Shown here one piece after another: positions 870-59,878 of a stretch of DNA of 64,000 bases. Each line of letters begins with the position of its first letter. The first letter of the stretch is position 1. The notes beneath the pieces were generated by a model. It worked only from the letters and a program-made list of their open reading frames with translations, was not told the DNA's origin and did not search any database. Both the position numbers and the translations under genes were made by a program. The DNA is from Cyanidioschyzon merolae (lineage: Eukaryota): NCBI GenBank assembly GCA_000091205.1, contig AP006500.2, one strand, 5' to 3'.

Positions 870-3800
870 CCTACCCACCGACATGCAGACGCCTTGCAGT
901 CTTTTTGGACCGGCCATCTACTACTTGTTTCAGCTTCTTTCTGTAGAATGCAACCTTGAGAGTTTGTCCTATAAAGTTGGCTCTCGTGAGCTCTGCGCGT
1001 CTCTTCCCGGGCACTGCACATCTCCTGATATTGATAGCAGTGTTAAAGTGTCGGTTCCCGAACTCTAAGCGTTTGCTCCCGTTGGTTGCACTCGCTAGTG
1101 CGAGGAACCCGCGAAATTTCGCCCTCGTTTTCATTCCTGCCCCGTCAGCGTTGCGTACTTTTTTATATACTTAGGGCTCCTCTGGCACGTTTCCATCTCG
1201 AATCTCTGAAGTATACATCCCAGTTCATAGTGTGTATAGGACATTCGGATCTCATCTGCAGGTATCTCAGCGAAACGCCTTGCGCACTCCTTGTACGTTC
1301 TTGTCTTTGGAGCTGGCATAGTCCCTTTTTGGGTCTTCCAGTGCCCTGCTCCGTACGCTACTGCTAGCCTCTGATTTCCATCCTCCTTCGGGTCACTCAA
1401 CTGATTGAAAAAATTTGCGAACGCCCGCTGCCTCCCACAGTACAAATTCATACGCAAACGAGCCCACCGGGGCTTGGTATACCCCCTCCACAGCCCATCC
1501 CAATGGGCAACACGTACTTCCATGAATTTCCGAAAAGCTTCAAAATCCGCTCCTCGGCTAGGAACCTGGCTGATCGCTTCCAGGTGCTCTTTCACTCCTG
1601 CATTCTATGTCTCAATTTTCTTCCGTGCATTCATCGTTCCCGATTCTCGGTAATATCTCGCTCTTGAGTGCTTTAAAAGACTCATGTCTTTCTGACGTAA
1701 GTTGCCGCCAGTACCATTTTCTACGCGCTTGGGGTACTGCGGTGGTTTCGATATTCCTGTTCCCAGGTTCCGCGCTGACGACAAAGTACTCGTCCTGCGC
1801 ATTCTGCGTCGCAGAACCCGCCTCCTTCTCATCTTCATGCTTCGCCGCGTCAACGACAAAGTCGTTATCCTGCACCTTCTGTGTCGCAGGATCCGCCTCC
1901 TTCTCATCTTTATGCATCGCCGCGCCAACGATAAAGCCGTTATCCTGCACCTCCTGCGTCGGAGGATCCGCCTCCTTCTTTTCTTCATGCTTCGCCGCTC
2001 CAACCATAAAGTCGTTATCCTGCACTTTCTATGTCGGAGGATCCGCCTCCTTCTCATCTTCATGCTTCACCGAGTCAACGACATGGTCGTTATCCTGCAC
2101 CTCCTGCGTCGCAGAATCCGCCTCCTTCTCACCTTCATGCTTCGTCAAGGGCGCAGCCGAGGGCGGAACTGGACGATCCTTCTTCAGCCGCCGATAGTGT
2201 ACACACATGGCTACTCCATCGGTTTCGGTCATCCCAGTGAATAATTTTTGTTTGCTCACCCTCAGACGTTTGAAATCGAAGATATTCTTCCAGTACGTCT
2301 CCCGGTTTTCACCGCAGAACTCCTCCCCGTTAACATTGAACTCCGGACAGATCTCCTTCATGATGCCGTACAGGACTCTGGAGTTGGTAGCAACAAAGTG
2401 CGACTTGTTGTTCCATATCGTGACGAAAATGAAGCGCTTCCCCAGAAGCGCAGCCGCCCGTTTCCACGACTCTGCAGTTTTTCCTCACTCAGCTTCATCT
2501 CCGCCTTGCGTTCGAGCTCTCGGTCCGGAAACACAAAATATCGCAGTACGAGGCGATAGGATCGTTCCTTATCTTTTTTCAACTCTGATGTCTTTTCTGC
2601 TGGATTCACCAGGCCCAGTGCCGCACGATGCTCTTGTATAGCCCCACGAATTACAGAAGCTTCATTCATGCTCTCGTTTGACGACTTCTTATCGACGAAT
2701 TCGACCTCGTCTTCATGCCTGCGATCGTTCGTGATGCCGTTGATAGTCGCCCATACTCCTTTGCGAGAGATGCGCGGCTAGAATGCAAACACGGCGCGTA
2801 TCGCGAAACGTTCGAGGTTCATAGGCAAATGGTTCTTCAGGCTTGTGAGGTACTTCATTGCCCCGTATGTGTACATACCACAGTCGCCTCAGTACCGAGT
2901 ACCGTTCAACCGGAATTCCGCGTTATTTCCGTGGAGGCATGCACTCCCTCATTCTTCGTCGACGCTTCCCCTGTGCCAAGCATCAGGTGACGAATAAAGT
3001 CTCATCGAAAATTTCTTCCGGAACCTCGACAGTTTCGATGCCCGTCACGTTGTCGTACATGTCCTTCACAAAAAGCATCAGTCCTGACGTCGCCTTCATA
3101 ATACTCATAGGCTACGTCGCGACACGTTCTCTGATGACTTGTTGCATTTGTTGCTCGTACGAATCCTTGATATGATTCACAAGACAGGGTTTCACCACCA
3201 TCTCGTTGTAGAGTTGTCTTTCGTGCAGCTTCTGACGCTACGCCTTCCCCTTTCACTTCTTCGTCTTGTCCTCTTCCCCTTTTACTCGGCACTGTTCTCC
3301 ATTTTTCAGGGAGCCAGCGATGCGGAACCTCCAGGATCCTCGACTTGCTATTCCACAACCTTCCTTGATTTTTTCTGAAAAAGAACACACTTTGAACGCT
3401 TCTGCTGTAAACCGCGGAAAAACACATGAATACAGTAATCCCAGAATGGAACACAACCGAATTTAAAGAATACACTTTGCGATGACTTTAATTGAAATAC
3501 GACTTTACATTAGAGCAACACTTCAACAAATCGTCAGATAGTGTTTCTCCTCAACGGCAACATGCGCGCCATACCTGATGCCTACCAGATGTGGAGATGC
3601 GCGTATCGAGCGCACTATAAAGAACAATGAACAGAATCGATCCACTAACTAGCACCGATAGAACGAGTTCTTTCCCTCTCTACGATAACCGTTAAAAGAG
3701 GGAAAATGTTTCCATGTGATCGAAGGTTTACCTTCTGGGGACAAGGTCCCGCGAACCGCACGAGTCTGCCAGACCCGTGCTTGATACTCTCCCCTGAGGC

Positions 3801-7199: not shown

Positions 7200-7811
7200 A
7201 CCGAGCGCAATGCCATGCTCGCTGCGTCCCGCATCTCGAACAAGGTGCATTCAAGGACGCCTCAGCGCCGCCACGAACTGAGCACATCCGAGTCGTACTT
7301 GCCTCTTCTCGAACAAGGTGCTCTCAAGGACGCCTCAGCGCCGCCACGAACTGAGCACATCCGAGTCGTACTTGCCTCTTCTCGAACAAGGTGCTTTCAA
7401 GGACGCCTCAGCGCCGCCACGAACTGAGCACATCCGAGTCGTACTTGCCTCTTCTCCAACAAGGTGCTTTCAAGGACGCCTCAGCACCGCCACGAACTGA
7501 GCACATCCGAGTCGTACTTGCCTCTTCTCCAACAAGGTGCTTTCAAGGACGCCTCAGCACCGCCACGAACTGAGCACATCCGAGTCGTACTTGCCTCTTC
7601 TCGAACAAGGTGCATTCAAGGACGCCTCAGCACCGCCACGAACTGAGCACATCCGAGTCATACTTGCCTCTTCTCGAACAAGGTGCATTCAAGGACGCCT
7701 CAGCGCCGCCACGAACTGAGCACATCCGAGTCGTACTTGCCTCTTCTCGAACAAGGTGCATTCAAGGACGCCTCAGCGCCGCCACGAACTGAGCACATCC
7801 GAGTCGTACTT
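7200..7811. repeat. 73-bp minisatellite of about 8 units. It abuts and overlaps the 3' end of the J-domain gene.
   Basis: The ORF track shows 60-aa ORFs starting every 73 bp (7318, 7391, 7464, 7537, 7610, 7683). The last truncated unit encodes the C-terminal KYDSDVLSSWRR and stop of the minus-strand J-domain ORF. Confidence 0.9.
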
Positions 7812-12413: not shown

Positions 12414-12936
12414 TACTACACGATTCAATTCATTGCATTTAGGACTTGTATAATTACTGATGAGAATCAGGATTTCTCAAACCTATACCCTACACGATTT
12501 CACTGATTGCATTTAATACTTGTGTAATCACTGATGAGAATCAGGATTTCTCAAACCTATACCCTACACGATTTCACTGATTGCATTTAATACTTGTGTA
12601 ATCACTGATGAGAATCAGGATTTCTCAAACCTATACCCTACACGATTTCACTGATTGCATTTAATACTTGTGTAATCACTGATGAGAATCAGGATTTCTC
12701 AAACCTATACCCTACACGATTCCATTCACTGCTTTTAATACTTGTGTAATCACTGATGAGAATCAGGATTTCTCAAACCTATACCCTACACGATTCCATT
12801 CACTGCTTTTAATACTTGTGTAATCACTGATGAGAATCAGGATTTCTCAAACCTATACCCTACACGATTCCATTCACTGCTTTTAATACTTGTGTAATCA
12901 CTGATGAGAATCAGGATTTCTCAAACCTATACCCTC
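12414..12936. repeat. 74-bp minisatellite of about 7 units, intergenic and upstream of the Tim9-like gene.
   Basis: The unit gatttcactgattgcatttaatacttgtgtaatcactgatgagaatcaggatttctcaaacctataccctacac recurs at 12496, 12570, 12644 and onward, with variants. Confidence 0.9.
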
Positions 12937-15150: not shown

Positions 15151-16452
15151 TCAATGATGGCGTGTTGACGTCGATGCTGTCGGCGTTTGCAGGCGAGTTG
15201 CGCCTACCATCTGCATGAGGACGGTCTTGGCACGCCCGTACAACTCGCGCAGTGTCGGAGGCAACCAGGTCGACCACATGTCTAACTGCATTTCGATGTG
15301 TTGCCACACCAGCCGCGTGAAAGGACAGCTTAAATAGCGCAACTGTAAATAGCGATAGAGCACCAAAACCGCCAGGAAGCTTCTTTGCGGTGTGAATATC
15401 GAAGCCAGCAAAAAGATGAACAGGGCTGCTTCGGCGTAGGCAGCCAGTAGGCGAGCCCTACTTTCATGCTGGCGCAAGTATGCGGCCAGATGTCGTTGCT
15501 TTGTCGGTGCCAAAAACCAGCGTAGCACCTGTGCAGAGGCAGTAGCGCTTTCGAAAAGTGGCAACAGACGATCGTAAACGAACGTGGTGATGAGCGACGC
15601 CATTGCGAGCCTTAACGCAACCGGGTGATGCAGCTGCACACCAACGGATACGAAGAAAAGCCGCGGAATGAGATCAGCAGAAGCGAGCGCCCGCTCTAGA
15701 CGCACCCGACCAGGCCACTCGCGAGGTAGCCGTTGCCAGCTCTGGTAGCAAGTCCAAGCCAGGGAAAGGAAAACACCGACCCAGGTCCAGCCGACAAGAG
15801 GCCCCGTTCCCATCCAAAACGTGCCAGTAGCAGCAACTAGGATGCACAGGTCCAACACGGGGCCCAAGTCGCTTGCCCCGCTGCGCTGAAAGCCAGCCCA
15901 GGCCGCTTGTCGGCATGCCTGCACACATTTCCAGGTGCGCTGTCGCCAGTCGTTGCTGTAGGTCCGCGCAAACTGGGTACGCTCACCTGCTGCTGCGTCT
16001 GCTGGAACCGCTCTAGAGCTCTGCGGCTTCAACGGCAACGAAGGATCGATGTACCTGCGAAAGAAAGCCCGACGGAGACGCTCCTCGACTTCCGCTGACG
16101 GTGCGGTGACCTCAGCGGCACGCCGAAAGCGCTGCCAAGCCTCGTCCGTGTCGAAAGGGTAGCGTTTGAAAGCCTCCTCTGCTGCCTCTGCTGCATCTTC
16201 AACCAGTGGCATGGTCCTCTCTTCTGCGGGCGGTGAACGACCTCGGCAACTGCCACACCCCGGAGTCCGGTGTGAGGAACCCCATTCATGTCCGCAATGT
16301 TCCAGTTCATCGAGCGCGCCCGCAGAGCGATCACCGATGCATCGAGTGCAGTGAGAGCGCACCAGGGAGGATACCCTCAGCAAGTTGCGCTGCCATGCGT
16401 GCAAACTGCTGGGAACGGGACACCAGGCAAGGTACTCTGGATCGGTACCCAC
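15151..16452 (-). CDS. Hypothetical multi-pass membrane protein
   Basis: 433-aa ORF with 3-4 strongly hydrophobic helices in the C-terminal half. No motif confidently recognised. Confidence 0.35.
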   Translation of the reverse strand: MGTDPEYLAWCPVPSSLHAWQRNLLRVSSLVRSHCTRCIGDRSAGALDELEHCGHEWGSSHRTPGCGSCRGRSPPAEERTMPLVEDAAEAAEEAFKRYPFDTDEAWQRFRRAAEVTAPSAEVEERLRRAFFRRYIDPSLPLKPQSSRAVPADAAAGERTQFARTYSNDWRQRTWKCVQACRQAAWAGFQRSGASDLGPVLDLCILVAATGTFWMGTGPLVGWTWVGVFLSLAWTCYQSWQRLPREWPGRVRLERALASADLIPRLFFVSVGVQLHHPVALRLAMASLITTFVYDRLLPLFESATASAQVLRWFLAPTKQRHLAAYLRQHESRARLLAAYAEAALFIFLLASIFTPQRSFLAVLVLYRYLQLRYLSCPFTRLVWQHIEMQLDMWSTWLPPTLRELYGRAKTVLMQMVGATRLQTPTASTSTRHH

Positions 16453-16700
16453 TGTACTGGATATACGGATAATGGTCTTGTTCAGCGGGACTCTGGGAGA
16501 TGTACTCTGGATTGGAACGCACTGTACCGGATATACGGATGCTCCTCGTGGTCAGCGGGACTCTAGGGAACGTACCTTGGATGGGTTCGCACTACACTGG
16601 ACGTAAGGATACTGAATTTGGCCAAGATAGGCAATAGGCAACGTGCTCTGGATCGGTACGCACTGTACTGGATGTACAGATAGTGAACAAGATCAACATT
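16433..16700. repeat. 70-bp tandem repeat of about 4 units at the 5' end of and upstream of the 15151-16452(-) ORF.
   Basis: tactctggatcggtac...cagcgggactct recurs at 16433, 16503, 16573 and 16644. Confidence 0.8.
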
Positions 16701-30215: not shown

Positions 30216-30270
<55 letters not shown>

Positions 30271-40475: not shown

Positions 40476-41327
40476 CCAACGCGAAAGAAGCATAGGATAA
40501 CACATATCCATAGCCGGTACACAATTGAAGTGATATGCTGGAAAACGCGAAAAAGCATAGGATAACACATATCCATAGCCGGTACACAATTGAAGTGATA
40601 TGCTGGAAAACGCGAAAAAGCATAGGATAATACATATCCATAGCCGGAACACAATTGAAGTGATACACTGGAAAACGCGAAAAAGCATAGGATAACACAG
40701 ACTCGTAGCCGGAACACAATTGAAGTGATACACTGGAAAACGCGAAAAAGCATAGGATAACGCATATCCATAGCCGGAACACAATTGAAGTGATATGCTG
40801 GAAAACGCGAAAAAGCAGATGATAACACACACTCATAGCCGGTACACAATTGAAGTGATATGCTGGAAAACGCGAAAAGCATAGGATAACACACACTCAT
40901 AGCCGGTACACAATTGAAGTGATATGCTGGAAAACGCGAAAAAGCATAGGATAACACACACTCATAGCCGGTACACAATTGAAGTGATATGCTGGAAAAC
41001 GCGAAAAAGCAGATGATAACACACACTCATAGCCGGTACACAATTGAAGTGATATGCTGGAAAACGCGAAAAAGCATAGGATAACACACACTCATAGCCG
41101 GTACACAATTGAAGTGATATGCTGGAAAACGCGAAAAAGCATAGGATAATACATATCCATAGCCGGAACACAATTGAAGTGATACACTGGAAAACGCGAA
41201 AAAGCATAGGATAACACACACTCATAGCCGGTACACAATTGAAGTGATACACTGGAAAACGCGAAAAAGCATAGGATAATACATATCCATAGCCGGAACA
41301 CAATTGAAGTGATACACTGGAAAACGC
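40476..41327. repeat. 65-bp minisatellite of about 13 units, ending about 190 bp upstream of the RPB1 start codon.
   Basis: The unit ggaaaacgcgaaaaagcataggataacacatatccatagccggtacacaattgaagtgatatgct repeats. Minus-strand ORFs start every 65 or 130 bp (41026, 41091, 41221). Confidence 0.9.
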
Positions 41328-41519
41328 GCGCCACCGCCGTCGACGCCGGCGCGCTTCCGCTGGAGCACTGCGCGTCCGCCGGCTCCTGCACCCGGTGCCG
41401 TGCCCGGGTGTGGACTTGTCGTTTGGGGAGTTGTTGCACGGCGGGTGGGTCGCCACTCCAGCTACGGTTGCGTTTGAACTGTGCTACTTTCTATCTTCAG
41501 ACTGGGCACGTTCATCGCG

Positions 41520-44500
41520 ATGGACTATGACCTGCAGACTTTCTCCTCAGCAGAGCTGAAGGCCGTAGGTGCTGTTCAGTTCGGGCTCCTGTCCCCGGAC
41601 GAACTGCGGCGCCTCTCGGTGGTGCGGGTTGAGTACGACGTAGCGTTCGAGCGTGGCGTGCCCAAGGCCGGGGGGGTGCTGGATCCTCGGCTGGGGGCAA
41701 TCGACCGGAACTTTCCATGTGCAACTTGCGAGGGGTCGTCGATCGACTGTCCGGGGCACTTTGGTCACATCGAGCTGGTCAAACCGGTGTTCAACGTGTT
41801 GATGCTGTCCACCGTGCTGAAAACGCTTCGTTGCGTGTGTTACTATTGTTCCCGTTTGCTTGTTGATGGTTCAGACTCGCGCATGCTGCGGGCAGCGAGG
41901 ATTAAGGATCCCGTCAAGCGTTTTCAGGCGGTTTTTCAACTCTGTAACGGAACAAGGGTTTGTGGCGGAGGCGCCGACAGCTCGGAGGAACAGCTGATGC
42001 TGCCTGCCGCCGTTCTCGAGGCTAGGGAGCGTATTGGCAAGCCTCGGGAAGGGTGCGGGAACCTTCAACCACATGTAACACGTGACGGCCTGCGAATTCT
42101 CGCGGAGTTTCCTGACGCGGAGGCCTTTGCAGCCGAGCGCAAGCAGGAGCTTGCCGCAGAGCGCGTCCAACAGATATTCCGACACATTCGTGACGAAGAC
42201 CTAGAGCTCCTCGGCTTTCATCCGCGGTTTTCCCGACCAGAATGGATGGTTCTGAGCGTGCTACCGGTGCCGCCACCACACGTGCGACCCTCGATCCAGA
42301 TGGATGCAGTGTCACGAGGGGAGGACGATCTGACGTTCAAACTGGGCGACATCATCAAGGCGAACAATGCCCTGCAGCGACTGGAGGCGGAAGGAGCGCC
42401 CGCCCATGTTATTCGGGAGCAGTACGTGCTTCTGCAATTCCACGTTGCCACATTTATGAACAACGATTTGCCGGGCATGCCTCGAGCGACACTGAGAAGT
42501 GGACGTCCGCTCAAGTCCATCGCCCAACGACTCAAAGGCAAAGAGGGTCGTGTCCGCAACAATCTCATGGGCAAAAGGGTGAACTTTTCGGCACGAACGG
42601 TGATCACTGCAGATCCGCAGCTGGCGCTTGATGAAGTCGGTGTCCCGCGCTCCGTGGCTATGACCCTCACCTACCCCGAAGTAGTAACGCCGTATAATAT
42701 CGACCGCTTATGGGAAGCGGTGCGAAACGGACCCAACGCCTATCCGGGTGCATTGTTTGTGATTCGAAACGATGGCAAGCGGATTGCGTTGCAGTTTGTG
42801 CGCCGATCGGCGGATATCGTGCTCGAACCGGGCTGCGTCGTGGAACGACACCTTCTGAACGGAGACCTAGTGCTCTTCAATCGTCAACCGTCTTTGCATC
42901 GCATGTCGATCATGGGACACCGGGTGCGCATCCTACCGTACTCAACGTTCCGCATGAACCTCAGCGCAACCAGTCCCTACAATGCGGATTTTGACGGTGA
43001 CGAAATGAACCTTCATGTCCCGCAGTCGGAGGAGGTTCGAGCGGAAATCAAGGAACTCATGGCAGTCCCCAAGAATATTGTATCTCCGCAGGCAAATCGC
43101 CCAGTGATGGGCATCGTGCAGGATTCACTGCTGGGCTGCATGCTCTTTACATTGCGAGATACGTTTTTGGAGGAAGACACGGTCTTTAATCTTCTGTTGC
43201 ACTTGCCGCACTTTGACGGACGCATTCCGGCACCAGCAATTCTGAAGCCGCGGCCACTCTGGACGGGAAAGCAGATCTTTTCGCTGCTTTTACCAGACGG
43301 CGTGAATCTAGAGCGCCTCTCCAACGGACATCCCGATCATGAGCGTACAATCATGACGCCCAGTGATACTCGCGTGCTCATCCAGAACGGAGAGCTCATC
43401 ACCGGCATCGTAGACAAACGCACGGTAGGATCCAGCGCGGGGTCGCTGATTCACGTCACCTGGAAGGAGTCAGGTCCAGAGAGAACGAGTCAACTGATCT
43501 CCGATATTCAACTCTTAATCAATTATTGGCTTATGCAGAACGGTATGAGCATTGGCATTGGAGACTGTATTGCTGATGCACACACCATGGCCGCTATTAA
43601 CCGAACGATTCAAGAAGCGAAGGACGAGGTGCGGCAGCTTATCCGTCTGGCACAAGAGGGTCGCCTCGAGCGTCAGCCCGGCAAAACGATGCTGGAGTCG
43701 TTCGAGGCCTGCGTGAATCGCGTACTGAACAGTGCCCGCGACAAGGCCGGTGGCTTTGCACAGGAGAGTCTCCTTCCAAGCAACAACATCAAGCGGATGG
43801 TGTCCGCCGGCAGCAAAGGCTCCTTCATTAATGTTTCCCAGATTGTGGCATGTGTTGGCCAGCAGAACGTCGAGGGCAAGCGCATCCCGTACGGCTTTCG
43901 TCGCCGAACACTTCCCCATTTCGTGGTGGACGATTTGTCACCCGAGGCCCGAGGATTCGTGGAGAACTCGTACCTCCGGGGACTGACTCCCGAGGAGGTC
44001 TTCTTTCATGCCATGGGCGGTCGAGAGGGTCTCATCGACACCGCAGTGAAGACTGCTGAAACCGGCTACATCCAGAGACGCCTCATGAAGGCCATGGAAG
44101 ACATTCGGATTGAATATGACGGTACTGTACGCAACTCGCTGGGCGATGTGATGCAGTTCCTCTACGGAGATGATGCCGCAGACGGGGCCATGCTGGAGGT
44201 GCAGGAGCTGCGCCTTGTGCGCGCAAGTAACCAGGAAATGGAAGCGCTCTTTCGTTTAGACGTATACGACCGAGATTTCGGCCTCGGCTACATAGAACCT
44301 GACCTAATCGACGCGGTGCGAACGGATCCTGAAGTGGCGCTCGAGCTCGAAGAAGAGTACCAACAGCTCTTGGCGGATCGCGAGCAACTCTGCGCGGTCT
44401 TTCCCACGGGTGAGGCCAAGTGGCCGCTTATGGTGAATGTTCAGCGGTTGATCCAGAACTGTCGCTCTATTTTCGGTATTCAACACGATACACTGAGCGA

Positions 44501-46979
44501 CTTGCATCCCCGGCAAATCATTCAAGGCGTGCGCGTACTGCTCCAGCGCTGCGTCGTTGTTCCTGGCGACGATGAGCTCTCCCGCGAGGCCCAGCGGAAC
44601 GCAGTACTGCTCTTTGCGGCCCACGTGCGGGCAGAGCTCGCCACGAAGCGTGTCCTGCAGATTCACCGGCTGAACAGCAAAGCTTTTGCCTGGCTTCTCG
44701 GCGAGATTGAGACGCGCTTTGTGCGAGCACGAGCAACACCTGGTGAAATGGTTGGCGCGGTTGCTGCCCAGTCGCTGGGTGAGCCTGCCACCCAGATGAC
44801 CCTGAACACATTTCATTTTGCGGGTGTGTCGGCAAAGAACGTCACCCTGGGAGTCCCGCGTCTCAAAGAGCTGATCAACGTAGCTCGTCAAGCGAAAACT
44901 CCATCTGTTACGGTGTATCTGAAGAGCGGCAAAGATAAGGAGCTGGCGAATATTGTGCAGAGTGAGCTAGAGCAGTGCCGACTCCGCGACGTGGTCGAAA
45001 GCAGCGCCATCTACTTTGATCCGGATCCCGCGAACACCGTTGTGGAAGCGGATCGGGAATGGGTCCGCGACTACTTCGACTTGCCCGATGAGATGGACCG
45101 GCCCGAGCGCTTATCGCCTTGGCTTTTGCGCATCGTCCTGAGCACCGAGATGATGATTGACAAACGCCTGCGATTGAGCGATGTTGCTCGTCGTCTGCGG
45201 GCGGAGTTTGGTGGCGACCTCTCCGTTGTCTATTCGGATGACAATGCCGAGCAACTGGTGATGCACATTCGCATGGCCGGAGACGAGTACGAGAAAGGCG
45301 CGCTGGGCGTTCCGATTCTCGGCGAGTCGGAGCGCCTTGACGATACACTGAACCTACTGGGGCCTGGCGACATGACCGCGGGCGGGAACCAGTCGCTAGA
45401 GGCACTGGACTCGGGCACCGTTGAGGAGCAAGATGATGTTTTTCTGAAGCGTATTGAACTAGCGCTCCTAGAGGATATGCAGCTGAAAGGGATTCCAGGT
45501 ATTCGAAAGGTGTTCCTGCGTCAGACGCAACGTGTTCTCTTTGATCCCGAGGCAGGATCTTTTCGCAGTGCGCCTGAGTGGGTGCTAGATACCGAAGGGA
45601 CGGCGCTATTGGCGGTGCTTTCCCATCCGGATGTGGATGCGAGGCGCACGATTTCCAACGAGATTACCGAAGTGCTACAAGTGCTCGGGATTGAGGCTGC
45701 TCGGCAAGCGCTTTACAATGAGATGTACGCGGTGCTGAGTTTTGATGGATCCAGTGTTGGATACCGGCACTTGGCGTTGCTGGTCGAGGTGATGACCTGT
45801 CGCGGAATGCTCATACCTGTATCTCGATTCGGAATTAATCGACTCGAGACGGGACCATTGATGCGCTGCACTTTTGAAGAGACCGTCGAGATTCTCGCAA
45901 CCGCGGCGACCTTTGGCGTTCGTGATGCTTGTGAGGGTGTCTCGCAAGCGGTGATTCTGGGGCAACGAGCAAAAGTAGGCACCGGGGCCTTTTCACTAAC
46001 GCTCGACGAGTCTGTACTGAATCAGGCAGAAACGGAAACGAGCGTTGCTGCAGTGCGGGACGCCCACGTCGGCGGTGTCTTTGCGAAAGCCTATGCTGCA
46101 GCCGACGTGGATGCAGATCACTGGACACCAGCGTACACGCCAGGAGCAACGCCTGGGATGGCCAGCGACGGCTTCGCAGCGCCCTGGACTCCGAGTTTGA
46201 ACCTCGCGAGTCCGTACGGTTCATTTTCCCCAGCCGTTGGCTTTAGCCCAGCAACGAGCACATATGTCGGTGGTGATGCGATGAAGGATGCCGGTCGGTA
46301 TGGGCTCGGTGGAACCTCACCCTTTGCGAGCTTCTCCGCTAGTGCGACGACTCCGAATTGGGCTCCGAGTCCCGCGGGGGGCGGGACCGGTACGTTGGGC
46401 GCATTTTCGCCATCGAGTCCCGCCTATTCGCCAACGAGTCCTCGTTTGGTGTCGCCGACGAGCCCTGCATACTCACCAACAAGTCCTGCGTATTCGCCGA
46501 CGAGCCCTGCATACTCACCAACAAGTCCTGCGTATTCGCCGACGAGCCCTGCATACTCACCAACAAGTCCTGCGTATTCGCCGACGAGCCCTGCGTATTC
46601 GCCTTCATCACCGAATGTTGCATATTCGCCTTCATCACCGAATGTTGCCTATTCACCTTCTTCACCGAATGTTGCCTATTCACCTTCTTCACCGAATGTT
46701 GCATATTCACCTTCTTCACCGAATGTTGCATATTCGCCCTCATCACCGAATGTTGCATATTCGCCCTCATCACCGAACGTTGCGTACTCGCCTTCTTCAC
46801 CGAATGTTGCATACTCGCCCTCATCACCGAATGTAGCGTATTCACCTTCTTCACCGGTTGCATATTCACCCTCTTCACCGAACGTTGCCTACTCACCCTC
46901 ATCACCGAATGTGGCATACTCGCCTTCGTCACCGGCGTTTTCACCATCGTCACCTGTATATTCTCCAAAAAACAAATAG
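41520..46979 (+). CDS. RPB1: DNA-directed RNA polymerase II largest subunit RPB1, with a C-terminal heptad/nonamer repeat domain. The start is taken at the Met of [10 protein letters not shown]. The track ORF opens 13 codons upstream.
   Basis: Zinc-binding [27 protein letters not shown]. The catalytic [14 protein letters not shown]. The bridge helix, trigger loop and C-terminal YSPTSPA repeats. It is a single 1.8k-aa ORF. Confidence 0.95.
   Translation: [1819 protein letters not shown]
46440..46930 (+). repeat. Coding tandem repeats of the RPB1 CTD. A 42-bp unit, equal to two heptads with alternating codon usage, occurs about 4 times. A 27-bp unit encoding YSPSSPNVA occurs about 11 times.
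   Basis: tactcaccaacaagtcctgcgtattcgccgacgagccctgca repeats. tattcgccttcatcaccgaatgttgca repeats. Confidence 0.9.
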
Positions 46980-47371
46980 AGCTTGTTGTTTTTGTTTAAT
47001 CTTGGACAAGGTCCAGTACAAAAACCAAACTGCTCGATGGACTGCATCGAGTGGAACGATCTGCGATTCTTTAAAGCAATCGCTGAGGTATCCGGATAGG
47101 ACACCTTTAGGCGCTTCTGCGACACGGATTCCCTTTGCGATGCATGAACCTGAACTGCAGGGCATTTCAACTCCCAGACGGGCGACTGGGTCATGCACCA
47201 GAGACTAGAGACCTCACGGAAACACACACACACACAGAGTGTCGCGGTTCTCCAATCCTGAGCAAGCACCCGCTACGCACACGTCCTGATGCAGTCGGCA
47301 CTGGCTGGGGAGGATTTCGTGCCTTGTCGCCGCTGCATTGCAATCAACCGTTGTGAACGAAAGAAGCAACC

Positions 47372-47392
47372 GCTGCTGCTGCTGCTGCTGCT
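47372..47392. repeat. (GCT)7 microsatellite
   Basis: read directly. Confidence 0.9.
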
Positions 47393-47622: not shown

Positions 47623-48987
47623 TCACACAAGAGCCTCCAGACGATTCCCCAGTTTCGCCAGGTGCACGTAGGCATCCGTTCCAAAGCCCTCCATGGAAGC
47701 AATGCTCAATTCGCCTCCAAAATAACGCGCATAGAGCCGAGATAGCGGCAGACCGTAGCCGAAGCCGGCTAGCGGGTCCATGGAAGCTCCTCGCGCACCG
47801 TGTACATGACTCCCAGGTCCATATTCGGGTTGGATCAGCGCCTCTGGGGGTACTGTTGCCGTTGTGAACATGTAAGTCCAAATTTTGGGTAAACTGGAAC
47901 GCGAAATGCCGCCTCCCTCGTCGGCGATCTTCAGCGTCACATCCTCATATCCATCCGCAATAATCACCTTGATCGGCGGAAAGCTTTCCCGTCCCATATG
48001 ATGCTCCATGGTTGCTCGGATGGAGTTTTTGAGCAACTCGAACAGCACATGATAGAGATGCCCCTCAATGTATGGGAACTCCAGGTCGGTTTTCCCCAGG
48101 ATAACCACCTCGGGCGGCTCTTCACCGTAGTGTCGATAGGCTAGTGCTCGCGCTGCATCCGCCGCATCCGCTGCAACGTGCGCTGGTCGACAACGTATGT
48201 GAATAATGCCCACGTATCCCTGGCGCGATCGCTCCAGAGACATACTGACTTGTTGAGAAATGAGCACGCGAATGCCTATCCTTGAAGTGTAGAAGCGATC
48301 AAGGAACGAGCTGATGTGAATGTCATCCGCGCCCATCCCACAGGATTGCTTCAGTTCGAGTACCCCGCACGCAATCTGTCGCACAACGTCAGAGTGCCGG
48401 TCTCGGATGCGACGCAGGAGCTCCGTAAAACGACGCTCCTCTTCACCTTCCCGTTCAGGCCGGGGATGCATGAGGATGTCGGCGAAGGAGTTCTCGTATA
48501 GTTCGCAAACGCGTTTCACGCTGCGCATCTCCGACAGACCGTATGGAAGCGACTGTAGTTCCACTACGCGGTGCGCCAGTCGAATGGCGAGCTCACGATG
48601 CATCAGTTGCGCCGCAAGCAGCAGCTTCTTCGGTGTCGGATGTCGACCAAACTCGAGCAGCTGTCGCAGCGACACTGGAGTCGCGCTGCGACGAGCGTAG
48701 CGCGGGATGAGTTCCAACGCCTCCTCCCTGCTCGAAGGCAGACGCAGAAGCAGCGGTTTCGCTTCCAGTGGCGTATACGCGACGTCTGGTTGACTCGGCG
48801 GGCATCCAGACGCGAGCCAACTGGGAATCGAGGGATCCTCCGCACTAGTTCTCAGGGAGGCGGCAGGTGCGAGCCGCTGTGCAGAGGTCCAGCCCCGCGT
48901 TGCTGACGGCCACAGCCCTGAGCCGAGTCTTAAAACGGCCCATGCCAGACCCTGCTTTCTCCAGATAGCCATAGAGAGATGAATCAA
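47623..48987 (-). CDS. PDK: Mitochondrial pyruvate dehydrogenase kinase / branched-chain ketoacid dehydrogenase kinase family (GHKL ATPase), with an N-terminal presequence-like region.
   Basis: N-terminal LIPRYARRSATPVSLRQLLEFG, matching the BCDHK/PDK N-domain. C-terminal HLYHVLFELLKNSIRAT...IKVIIADGYEDVTLKIADEGGGI...GFGYGLPLSRLYARYFGGELSIASMEGFGTDAYVHL, matching the HATPase_c N, G1 and G2 boxes. Confidence 0.85.
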   Translation of the reverse strand: MIHLSMAIWRKQGLAWAVLRLGSGLWPSATRGWTSAQRLAPAASLRTSAEDPSIPSWLASGCPPSQPDVAYTPLEAKPLLLRLPSSREEALELIPRYARRSATPVSLRQLLEFGRHPTPKKLLLAAQLMHRELAIRLAHRVVELQSLPYGLSEMRSVKRVCELYENSFADILMHPRPEREGEEERRFTELLRRIRDRHSDVVRQIACGVLELKQSCGMGADDIHISSFLDRFYTSRIGIRVLISQQVSMSLERSRQGYVGIIHIRCRPAHVAADAADAARALAYRHYGEEPPEVVILGKTDLEFPYIEGHLYHVLFELLKNSIRATMEHHMGRESFPPIKVIIADGYEDVTLKIADEGGGISRSSLPKIWTYMFTTATVPPEALIQPEYGPGSHVHGARGASMDPLAGFGYGLPLSRLYARYFGGELSIASMEGFGTDAYVHLAKLGNRLEALV

Positions 48988-59815: not shown

Positions 59816-59878
59816 ATCCATCCATCCATCCATCCATCCATCCATCCATCCATCCATCCATCCATCCATCCATCCATC
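59816..59878. repeat. (ATCC)n, equivalently (CATC)n, tetranucleotide microsatellite of about 15 units
   Basis: read directly. Confidence 0.95.

What the first reader, a model, noticed from the sequence alone, without database searches (positions are those of the whole stretch)
46380..46979. RPB1 CTD switches from canonical YSPTSPA heptads to about 11 YSPSSPNVA nonamers
About 7-8 heptads of YSPTSPA are followed by a block of nonamers YSPSSPNVA, with one octamer YSPSSPVA. The nonamers are encoded by a 27-bp DNA tandem repeat. The two-residue NV insertion breaks the heptad register that CTD kinases, phosphatases and binding proteins normally read. The heptad block is also encoded with strictly alternating synonymous codon sets, giving a 42-bp DNA period, which suggests expansion by duplication of two-heptad units. 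A CTD composed largely of regularly spaced nonamers is unusual, and it is informative about the lineage and about CTD-code constraints.
Basis: partly seen in the sequence, partly recalled or inferred. Interest (0 to 1): 0.5.

Follow-up and report, generated by a model that had tools for sequence, protein, structure and literature searches.

The report
Red-alga RNA polymerase tail with nonamers
The tail of the main RNA polymerase II subunit in this hot-spring red alga really does switch from the usual 7-residue repeats to conserved 9-residue repeats, but the trait is shared with its sister genus and is already visible in public sequences, so it is a useful natural experiment rather than a new kind of thing.

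Summary
Window 41520-46979 (+) is an intronless 1819-aa RPB1 gene. Its C-terminal domain (CTD) runs [22 protein letters not shown], 6x YSPTSPA, 9x YSPSSPNVA, 1x YSPSSPVA, 2x [29 protein letters not shown]. There are six perfect heptads, not 7-8. The 42-bp codon alternation and the 27-bp DNA repeat are both real.

The organism is a Cyanidioschyzon-type red alga, with RPB1 86% identical to Cyanidiococcus yangmingshanensis. The nonamers are not an assembly artefact. Four independent assemblies at about 99% DNA identity carry them, and 10 of the 11 nonamer DNA units in the window differ.

The nonamers are under purifying selection. Nineteen distinct DNA versions across five loci all encode YSPSSPNVA, and they vary only at third codon positions.

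The trait belongs to the lineage. Cyanidiococcus has two perfect heptads followed by alternating 9/8-mers amplified as a 51-bp unit. Other lineages also have regular non-heptad CTDs: an unrelated MMETSP0958 protist has YSPSSPA[AQ]A nonamers, and Porphyridium has a 17-residue period.

Each nonamer keeps Y1-S2-P3-x-S5-P6 and lengthens only the spacer. It most likely works as a phosphorylatable CTD unit whose readers have co-adapted, but this is an inference. I could not check whether the nonamers have already been described, because the key CTD-evolution papers are not in the held library.

The parts
41520..46979 (+). Complete intronless RPB1 (RNA polymerase II largest subunit) coding sequence, 1819 aa plus stop. 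The mechanical ORF starts at a GTG at 41481.
   Evidence: ORF list and translation. Pfam Rpb1 domains 1-7 all match at E values from 2e-104 to 6.6e-35. 100% identical to JGI protein P0001 and 86% identical over 100% coverage to Cyanidiococcus yangmingshanensis KAK4532844.1.
46000..46403 (+). Ser/Pro/Thr-rich non-repetitive linker between the polymerase core and the CTD repeats.
   Evidence: Translation. It contains scattered TP/SP motifs ([35 protein letters not shown]) with no periodicity. The boundaries are approximate.
46404..46469 (+). Three degenerate proximal heptad-like units: [14 protein letters not shown] and LVSPTSPA.
   Evidence: Parse. The same three units are conserved in Cyanidiococcus, where the third reads LVSPSSPA.
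46470..46595 (+). Six perfect YSPTSPA heptads encoded by two alternating synonymous codon sets. The 42-bp DNA period spans 46452-46594.
   Evidence: Pfam PF05001 (the CTD heptad repeat model) scores 60.9 bits (cut-off 20.3) and matches 6 stretches when the CTD containing this block (46404-46976) is scanned.
46596..46838 (+). Nine tandem YSPSSPNVA nonamers (27-bp DNA units).
   Evidence: The units differ from one another only at synonymous third positions.
46839..46862 (+). A single YSPSSPVA octamer.
   Evidence: Its DNA is identical to nonamer version n4 minus the AAT codon. Its position, third from the end of the 9/8-mer array, matches Cyanidiococcus P0002 and strain L003.
46863..46916 (+). 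Two further YSPSSPNVA nonamers.
46917..46979 (+). Distal end of the CTD: [14 protein letters not shown], the YSPKNK tail and the TAG stop (46977-46979).
   Evidence: The same end is conserved in Cyanidiococcus, with YSPK[NS]K.

Best explanation
This is the C-terminal domain of RNA polymerase II subunit RPB1 from a Cyanidioschyzon-type (cyanidiophyte) red alga.

Shown:
- A proximal block of canonical heptads is followed by a distal block in which position 7 (Ala) is replaced by Val-Ala or Asn-Val-Ala. This gives 8- and 9-residue units that keep Y1-S2-P3-S4-S5-P6 intact.
- The array grows and shrinks by tandem duplication, loss and conversion of whole units. The unit is 42 bp (two heptads) or 27 bp (one nonamer) in this lineage, and 51 bp (nonamer plus octamer) in the sister genus.
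- The 8/9-mers predate the split between Cyanidioschyzon and Cyanidiococcus.
- The peptide, including N-V-A, is held constant by purifying selection while the DNA turns over.

Inferred:
- The nonamers are working CTD units. Their two Ser-Pro sites are phosphorylated and isomerised as in heptads. They recruit factors that mainly recognise the within-unit Y1-to-P6 motif.
- Readers that in yeasts span the repeat junction, or need heptad-spaced pairs, either use the few proximal heptads or have co-adapted to the longer spacer.
For: - Identity: seven Rpb1 domains and RPB1 orthologues as best hits.
- Not an artefact: an identical protein occurs on independent JGI contig L001 (99.2% DNA identity). 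Nonamer arrays also occur on L002 and L003 from two other metagenomes. Six of 13 CTD-bearing cluster members have exactly the window's arrangement. Ten of the 11 nonamer DNA units are distinguishable.
- Lineage trait: Cyanidiococcus P0002, P0135-P0137 and P0276 have two perfect YSPTSPA heptads and then alternating [17 protein letters not shown]. These are encoded by a 51-bp unit x7.4 at 95% matches. Strain L003 and Cyanidiococcus P0002 share the distal order 8-9-8-9-9.
- Selection: 19 distinct DNA versions from five loci all encode YSPSSPNVA. Seven of 9 third positions vary against 0 of 18 first/second positions (Fisher p = 4e-5). The chance that 10 variant states are all synonymous under neutrality is about 3e-6.
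- Turnover: four strains at about 99% identity differ in unit order and number, but not in the peptide.
- Function argument: Cyanidiococcus retains only about five heptad-spaced units, so most of its CTD is 8/9-mers.
- Reader plasticity: each capping enzyme studied reads the CTD in its own way (PMC4066402).
- Convergence: an unrelated lineage independently has YSPSSPA[AQ]A nonamers with heavily diverged codons.
Against: - No phosphorylation, binding or genetic data exist here for the nonamers.
- In S. cerevisiae and S. pombe, one extra residue between every heptad is lethal (PMC6548728). By yeast rules a nonamer array therefore contains no minimal functional unit.
- The nonamer block alone fails the Pfam CTD model (12.9 bits against a 20.3 cut-off).
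- The window keeps 6-9 proximal heptads. From my own knowledge, unchecked here, that is close to the minimum needed for yeast viability, so the heptads could carry the essential code on their own.
- Concerted evolution by gene conversion can mimic some signs of constraint.
- Copy-number differences among the short-read assemblies may partly reflect collapse of the perfect 42-bp repeats.
Confidence: 0.7

Rival explanations
1. The nonamer block is a length, spacer or condensate module and not part of the CTD code. All specific reading happens on the proximal heptads. The nonamers only supply a disordered, Pro/Ser/Tyr-rich extension of the right length and stickiness.
For: - Yeast genetics show that arrays with an extra residue between every heptad do not support viability (PMC6548728).
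- The window retains 6 perfect and 3 degenerate proximal heptads.
- The nonamer block fails PF05001.
Against: - A pure spacer would not need every residue fixed. Nineteen DNA versions encode one peptide with no amino-acid change, including N-V-A.
- The same units are conserved between genera whose RPB1 is only 86% identical.
- Cyanidiococcus has only two perfect heptads. From my own knowledge, that is too few to carry an essential code by yeast standards.
Confidence: 0.2
2. This is relaxed constraint, the first step of the CTD degeneration seen in many red algae. Heptad-dependent partners have been lost in this reduced genome, and the repeat is drifting away from the canonical form.
For: [quoted passage not shown]
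- Porphyridium also departs from the 7-residue spacing.
- From my own knowledge, not tested here: C. merolae has very few introns and a reduced spliceosome, so CTD-coupled splicing constraints may be weak.
Against: - Drift predicts heterogeneous units with amino-acid changes. The array is instead highly regular, and all within-array variation is synonymous.
- Y1, S2, P3, S5 and P6 are all retained in every unit.
Confidence: 0.1
3. This is an assembly artefact. The nonamer array, or its unit count, results from mis-assembly of a tandem repeat.
For: - Related short-read assemblies disagree on counts. Perfect heptads number 2, 3, 4, 5 or 6, and nonamers before the first octamer number 7, 8 or 9.
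- The 42-bp heptad repeat is 100% identical over 143 bp, which makes it prone to collapse.
Against: - Nonamers appear in every independent assembly, including an NCBI genome of the sister genus.
- Ten of the 11 nonamer DNA units in the window are unique, so the block can be assembled.
- The window's arrangement is the most common one among the 13 related CTD sequences.
- At most the exact heptad number is uncertain.
Confidence: 0.04

Closest known systems
Canonical RNA polymerase II CTD (tandem Y1S2P3T4S5P6S7 heptads; Pfam PF05001)
   Same: It lies at the same position on RPB1. It has the same Y-S-P-x-S-P core in every unit, a proximal block of true heptads (YSPTSPA, the variant also reported as very regular in stramenopiles, PMC3646058), and the same mode of growth by tandem duplication.
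   Different: About 107 of the 191 CTD residues are 9- or 8-residue units, so the Tyr-to-Tyr and Ser5-to-Ser5 spacing is 9 rather than 7. That block scores below the Pfam cut-off on its own. Position 4 is Ser rather than Thr.
Cyanidiococcus yangmingshanensis RPB1 CTD (KAK4532844.1 and KAF6001780.1, plus related JGI sequences)
   Same: It has the same proximal degenerate units, the same YSPSSPNVA and YSPSSPVA units, the same distal end ([18 protein letters not shown][NS]K), and the same gene neighbourhood with a convergent PDK-like kinase.
   Different: It has only two perfect heptads. Nonamers and octamers alternate, giving a 17-residue period amplified as a 51-bp unit. The window has runs of nonamers, a single octamer and an expanded di-heptad block.
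Nonamer CTD of an MMETSP0958 protist (P0287/P0426, locus L005). It is probably the thraustochytrid Aurantiochytrium limacinum, but that assignment rests on my memory of the MMETSP numbering and is unverified.
   Same: It has a regular 9-residue period built as YSPSSP plus three residues ending in Ala (YSPSSPAAA x5, YSPSSPAQA x4). The codons are strongly diverged between units while the peptide is conserved.
   Different: The spacer is AAA or AQA rather than NVA, and there is almost no heptad block. This is therefore an independent origin.
Porphyridium purpureum RPB1 CTD
   Same: It is a red alga with non-heptad spacing. YSPSSPNA (8 residues) plus YGGSPSSP[QM] (9 residues) give a 17-residue period.
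   Different: The second half-unit lacks the Y-S-P start and the array is less regular. The core protein is only about 52% identical.
Synthetic yeast CTD mutants with alanine inserted between heptads, and the minimal functional unit concept
   Same: They share the same kind of alteration, which is extra residues between otherwise intact heptad cores.
   Different: In yeasts, an insertion between every heptad is lethal, and only insertions between di-heptads are tolerated (PMC6548728). Here the every-unit insertion is the natural, selected state.
Spt5 C-terminal repeat of fission yeast (nonapeptide TPAWNSGSK)
   Same: It is a nonamer repeat on a transcription-elongation protein. It is phosphorylated by a CDK and read by capping enzymes (PMC4274631, PMC4066402).
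   Different: It is a different protein with an unrelated sequence. This is an analogy only.

Membership tests
[quoted passage not shown] | All conserved Rpb1 domains (1-7) present in canonical order in one polypeptide | tested here: met
   Pfam PF04997, PF00623, PF04983, PF05000, PF04998, PF04992 and PF04990 all score far above their cut-offs.
[quoted passage not shown] | Closest homologues are Pol II RPB1 orthologues, rather than the Pol I or Pol III large subunits | tested here: met
   All of the top 120 hits that carry a specific name are RPB1 or 'RNA polymerase II subunit' proteins, at 48-100% identity over at least 82% of the query.
[quoted passage not shown] | C-terminal extension made of tandem Y-S-P-x-S-P-containing repeats | tested here: met
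   There are 23 [YF]SPxSP motifs, at 22 successive spacings, plus the terminal YSPKNK.
Canonical heptad CTD (Pfam PF05001 RNA_pol_Rpb1_R) | Tandem units with a 7-residue period matching YSPTSPS | tested here: met
   This applies to the proximal block only. PF05001 scores 60.9 bits (cut-off 20.3) with 6 stretches on 46404-46976, and there are six perfect YSPTSPA units.
Canonical heptad CTD (Pfam PF05001 RNA_pol_Rpb1_R) | 7-residue period across the distal block (46596-46916) | tested here: not met
   Spacing is 9 for eleven units and 8 for one. PF05001 scores 12.9 bits, below the 20.3 cut-off, on this block alone.
Yeast-defined minimal functional unit (di-heptad or decapeptide YSPTSPSYSP) | Two Tyr residues 7 apart flanking S2P3-S5P6-S2P3 | tested here: met
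   Read directly from the sequence. It is present in the heptad block and at the distal [17 protein letters not shown]. It is absent from every nonamer-nonamer junction. Whether this alga needs such a unit was not tested.
Functional CTD code | Stage-specific phosphorylation of Ser2 and Ser5 (and Tyr1) and phospho-dependent factor binding | not testable with these tools
   This needs phosphoproteomics, ChIP or binding assays. Only the retention of the target residues is shown.
Cyanidioschyzon/Cyanidiococcus-type CTD (a lineage trait defined in this report) | YSPSSPNVA and YSPSSPVA units between proximal YSPTSPA heptads and a distal [20 protein letters not shown] end | tested here: met
   This holds for the window, L001-L003, cluster members P0121-P0133, and Cyanidiococcus P0002, P0135-P0137 and P0276.

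The most novel reading that the evidence does not exclude
The 9- and 8-residue units form a genuinely re-registered CTD code. In this alga, the kinases, phosphatases, the prolyl isomerase and the phospho-readers have co-evolved to work on Ser-Pro pairs spaced 9 (or 9+8) residues apart. If so, heptad periodicity is not a requirement of Pol II CTD function. An independent origin of YSPSSPxxA nonamers in an unrelated protist, and the 17-residue periods in Cyanidiococcus and Porphyridium, would then point to a small set of permitted alternative registers.
Probability: 0.3. Interest if true: 0.65.

Novelty: new variant of a known kind. Interest (0 to 1): 0.4.

Why it matters
Work in yeast and mammals treats heptad periodicity, or at least heptad pairs, as essential. 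One extra residue between every repeat kills both model yeasts.

Here nature has placed two or three extra residues between most repeats and then kept the result unchanged at the protein level across two genera. This poses a clean question: which CTD readers tolerate a longer spacer, and which need the few remaining heptads?

From my own knowledge, Cyanidioschyzon merolae supports gene targeting by homologous recombination. If this organism is that species or a close relative, swapping nonamers for heptads, and the reverse, would be feasible.

The finding is tempered by three facts. The sequences are already public. The trait is shared with the sister genus. CTD-evolution surveys that I could not read have probably already looked at this protein.

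Tried and rejected
1. A protein search with the CTD alone returned only ordinary heptad CTD fragments and did not even recover P0001 or P0002. It says nothing about how widely the nonamer is distributed.

The string YSPSSPNVA gives 0 hits. Searches combining merolae, CTD, Rpb1 and nonapeptide terms found no description of the nonamers. The key papers are not held:
- Yang & Stiller 2014, PNAS
- Yang, Hager & Stiller 2014, Transcription
- Liu et al. 2010, MBE
- Stiller & Cook 2004

Prior description could therefore be neither confirmed nor excluded. My recollection is that Yang & Stiller included C. merolae.

3. I could not name the organism exactly. No NCBI, UniProt or EukProt entry for Cyanidioschyzon merolae appears for RPB1 or for the neighbouring kinase. 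The best named relative is Cyanidiococcus, at 86% for RPB1. The source genome may be absent from the database.

4. The exhaustive representative search was meant to recover Galdieria or Cyanidium as outgroups. Of the ten hits I looked up, including the top four, the named ones were Cyanidiococcus itself, a raphidophyte, a pedinophyte and a euglenid. The two non-red-algal ones carry long YSPTSPA arrays, so I take their rank to reflect heptad composition. The outgroup state within the cyanidiophytes stays untested.

5. The TAXON_ID 87120 in the MMETSP0958 header resolves to a basidiomycete, which is implausible. 87102 is Aurantiochytrium limacinum. A search for 'MMETSP0958' found nothing.

6. 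ORFs in other frames and on the opposite strand across the repeat (46288-46836 +, 46358-46999 +, 46339-46968 -) were dismissed as by-products of the repeat.

7. The Pfam DUF6470 hit on the nonamer block (31 bits against a 28.9 cut-off) was treated as a low-complexity artefact.

8. I tested whether the window's 65-75-bp minisatellites form one family. Their consensus units are unrelated.

9. tRNA and Rfam scans of the window found nothing.
Full report
**What is there.** The finding lies at the 3' end of a 5.46-kb uninterrupted ORF (41520-46979, + strand). The 1819-aa product carries all seven Rpb1 Pfam domains in order. It is 100% identical to a JGI metagenome protein (P0001) and 86% identical over its full length to a protein of the cyanidiophyte red alga Cyanidiococcus yangmingshanensis. 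The next hits are RPB1 proteins of plants, algae and animals at about 50-55%. The window has about 55% G+C, and this gene and the neighbouring kinase gene read as single uninterrupted ORFs. The gene is RPB1, and the region is its C-terminal domain (CTD).

**Checking the observation.** Parsing the CTD in frame gives this order:
- [22 protein letters not shown]
- six perfect YSPTSPA heptads (46470-46595)
- nine YSPSSPNVA nonamers (46596-46838)
- one YSPSSPVA octamer (46839-46862)
- two more nonamers (46863-46916)
- [20 protein letters not shown], then the stop codon

The '7-8 YSPTSPA' is really six perfect copies plus two imperfect ones. Tandem Repeats Finder reports a 27-bp period (12.8 copies, 87% matches) and a 42-bp period (3.4 copies, 100% matches). 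The 42-bp period arises because two codon sets alternate. They are TAC TCA CCA ACA AGT CCT GCG and TAT TCG CCG ACG AGC CCT GCA, and they differ at the third position of six of seven codons.

**Not an artefact.** Contig L001 from a JGI sample is 99.2% identical in DNA over 7.7 kb and encodes the identical protein. I also scanned JGI metagenome contigs with a degenerate pattern for the nonamer junction. It found two more contigs, L002 and L003, at about 99% identity to the window:
- L002 carries 6 heptads, then units of 8x9 / 8 / 2x9 residues.
- L003 carries 4 heptads, then 7x9 / 8 / 9 / 8 / 9 / 9.

Thirteen CTD-bearing members of the protein's 90% cluster all have the nonamers, and six share the window's exact arrangement. 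Within the window, 10 of the 11 nonamer DNA units are distinct, so that block can be assembled reliably. Only the perfect 42-bp repeat (143 bp) is at risk of collapse. The heptad count, which ranges from 2 to 6 among assemblies, is the one uncertain number.

**Selection and turnover.** I labelled every distinct DNA version of each unit. The four strains at about 99% identity have different unit orders. For example:
- window: n1 n2 n3 n4 n4 n5 n6 n7 n8 o1 n9 n10
- L002: n12 n12 n4 n4 n4 n5 n13 n8 o2 n11 n10

The array is therefore being remodelled by unit gain, loss and conversion. Across the window, L001-L003 and the Cyanidiococcus locus there are 19 distinct 27-bp versions, and all of them encode YSPSSPNVA. 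Seven of nine third positions vary, and none of the 18 first or second positions does (Fisher p = 4e-5). If changes were neutral, only 28% would be synonymous, so ten synonymous variant states out of ten has a probability of about 3e-6. The peptide, including the inserted Asn-Val, is under purifying selection. Rare amino-acid variants do occur in metagenome assemblies (YSPSSPIVA, HSPSSPVA, DSPTSPA).

**A lineage trait.** Cyanidiococcus (NCBI genome contig JANCYV010000014.1, locus L004) has the same proximal degenerate units and only two perfect YSPTSPA heptads. These are followed by six nonamer-octamer pairs and two further nonamers, encoded by a 51-bp unit (7.4 copies, 95% matches). The distal end is the same. 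Its nonamer and octamer codons differ at several synonymous sites, so the two unit types were already distinct before the pair was amplified. Strain L003 and Cyanidiococcus P0002 share the distal order 8-9-8-9-9. A mixture of 8- and 9-mers therefore predates the split of the two genera. Each lineage later amplified a different unit: the di-heptad and the nonamer here, and the 9+8 pair in the sister genus. A-type heptad codons are found only on the Cyanidioschyzon side. One strain, L002, has lost the strict alternation.

**How unusual it is.** Runs of a constant spacing that is not a multiple of seven occur in only four groups:
- this clade
- Porphyridium purpureum, with YSPSSPNA + YGGSPSSP[QM] giving a 17-residue period
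- an unnamed protein with four YSPTSPAP octamers (P0322)
- P0287/P0426, an MMETSP0958 protist

The CTD of that last protein is almost entirely nonamers (YSPSSPAAA x5, YSPSSPAQA x4), with strongly diverged codons. I believe MMETSP0958 is the thraustochytrid Aurantiochytrium limacinum. That rests on memory and on a near-match of taxon numbers, and it is not verified. Regular non-heptad CTDs are therefore rare but recurrent. In both nonamer lineages the unit is YSPSSP plus three residues ending in Ala.

**How it probably works.** Every nonamer keeps Tyr1, Ser2-Pro3 and Ser5-Pro6. Only the single residue between Pro6 and the next Tyr is replaced, by two or three residues. Published work shows two relevant things:
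- A single alanine between all heptads is lethal in both model yeasts, while insertions between heptad pairs are tolerated (PMC6548728).
- Capping enzymes bind CTD segments that cross the repeat junction, or bridge Ser5-phosphates of adjacent heptads. Each enzyme studied has evolved its own solution (PMC4066402).

By yeast rules the nonamer block holds no minimal functional unit, and it also fails the Pfam CTD model on its own. Three observations argue that it is nevertheless a working part of the code and not a passive spacer or a decaying repeat: the strict conservation of the peptide, its retention across genera, and the near-absence of heptads in Cyanidiococcus. My best reading is that the units act as phosphorylatable CTD repeats for factors that read the within-unit motif. 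Junction-spanning readers would either be co-adapted or served by the proximal heptads. This step is inferred, not shown.

[quoted passage not shown] It contains no mention of the nonamer. The papers most likely to describe it are not held, so I cannot say whether it has been described before. I suspect the C. merolae CTD has been looked at. The sequences themselves are public. I therefore rate this a real and correctly read feature: a variant of a known kind, of moderate interest. Its main value is as a natural experiment on whether the CTD needs heptad periodicity.

Noticed in passing
window 40478-41328: A 65-bp minisatellite (13.1 copies, 93% matches) ends about 190 bp upstream of the RPB1 start codon. 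No tandem repeat is found upstream of RPB1 in the Cyanidiococcus locus L004.
   Followed up: partly
window 1770-2144, 7234-7811, 12416-12935, 16416-16682: There are four more minisatellites with similar unit lengths (75, 73, 74 and 70 bp), two of them 97-98% identical between copies. Their consensus units are unrelated to each other and to the 65-bp array. Why unrelated arrays share a 65-75-bp unit size is unexplained.
   Followed up: partly
L005 9394-9636 (Logan SRR6339167 contig; proteins P0287/P0426, MMETSP0958): An unrelated eukaryote has an intronless RPB1 whose CTD is almost all nonamers (YSPSSPAAA x5, YSPSSPAQA x4). Codons are heavily diverged between units. The organism is probably a thraustochytrid, but this is unverified.
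   Followed up: partly
protein P0107 (Porphyridium purpureum RPB1), C-terminal ~200 aa: The CTD has a 17-residue period made of YSPSSPNA (8) plus YGGSPSSP[QM] (9). This is the same total as the 9+8 pair of Cyanidiococcus, which may be coincidence.
   Followed up: no
protein P0322 (unnamed, Logan), C-terminus: A short CTD with four tandem YSPTSPAP octamers, which is another regular non-heptad CTD.
   Followed up: no
window 47623-48972 (- strand): A pyruvate dehydrogenase kinase-like gene (449 aa; Pfam BCDHK_Adom3 + HATPase_c) lies convergent with RPB1, 643 bp from its stop codon. The same arrangement is present in Cyanidiococcus.
   Followed up: partly
window 46596-46916 and loci L001-L004: In all 19 DNA versions of the nonamer, the Ser5 and Pro6 codons are invariably TCA CCG, while seven of the other codons vary at the third position. 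This could be chance or a DNA- or RNA-level constraint.
   Followed up: no
window 46596-46916 (protein level): Pfam DUF6470 (PF20074) scores just above its cut-off on the nonamer block (31 bits against 28.9). This is most likely a low-complexity artefact.
   Followed up: no
window 30218-30269; 59816-59878; 47222-47236; 47372-47392: Perfect microsatellites: (CAG)17, (ATCC)16, (AC)7.5 and (GCT)7.
   Followed up: no
whole window: Neither RPB1 nor the neighbouring kinase has a Cyanidioschyzon merolae entry from NCBI, UniProt or EukProt among the hits. Exact or 99% matches come only from JGI metagenomes. The source genome seems to be missing from the searchable collections, so the species name is inferred and not shown.
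   Followed up: partly
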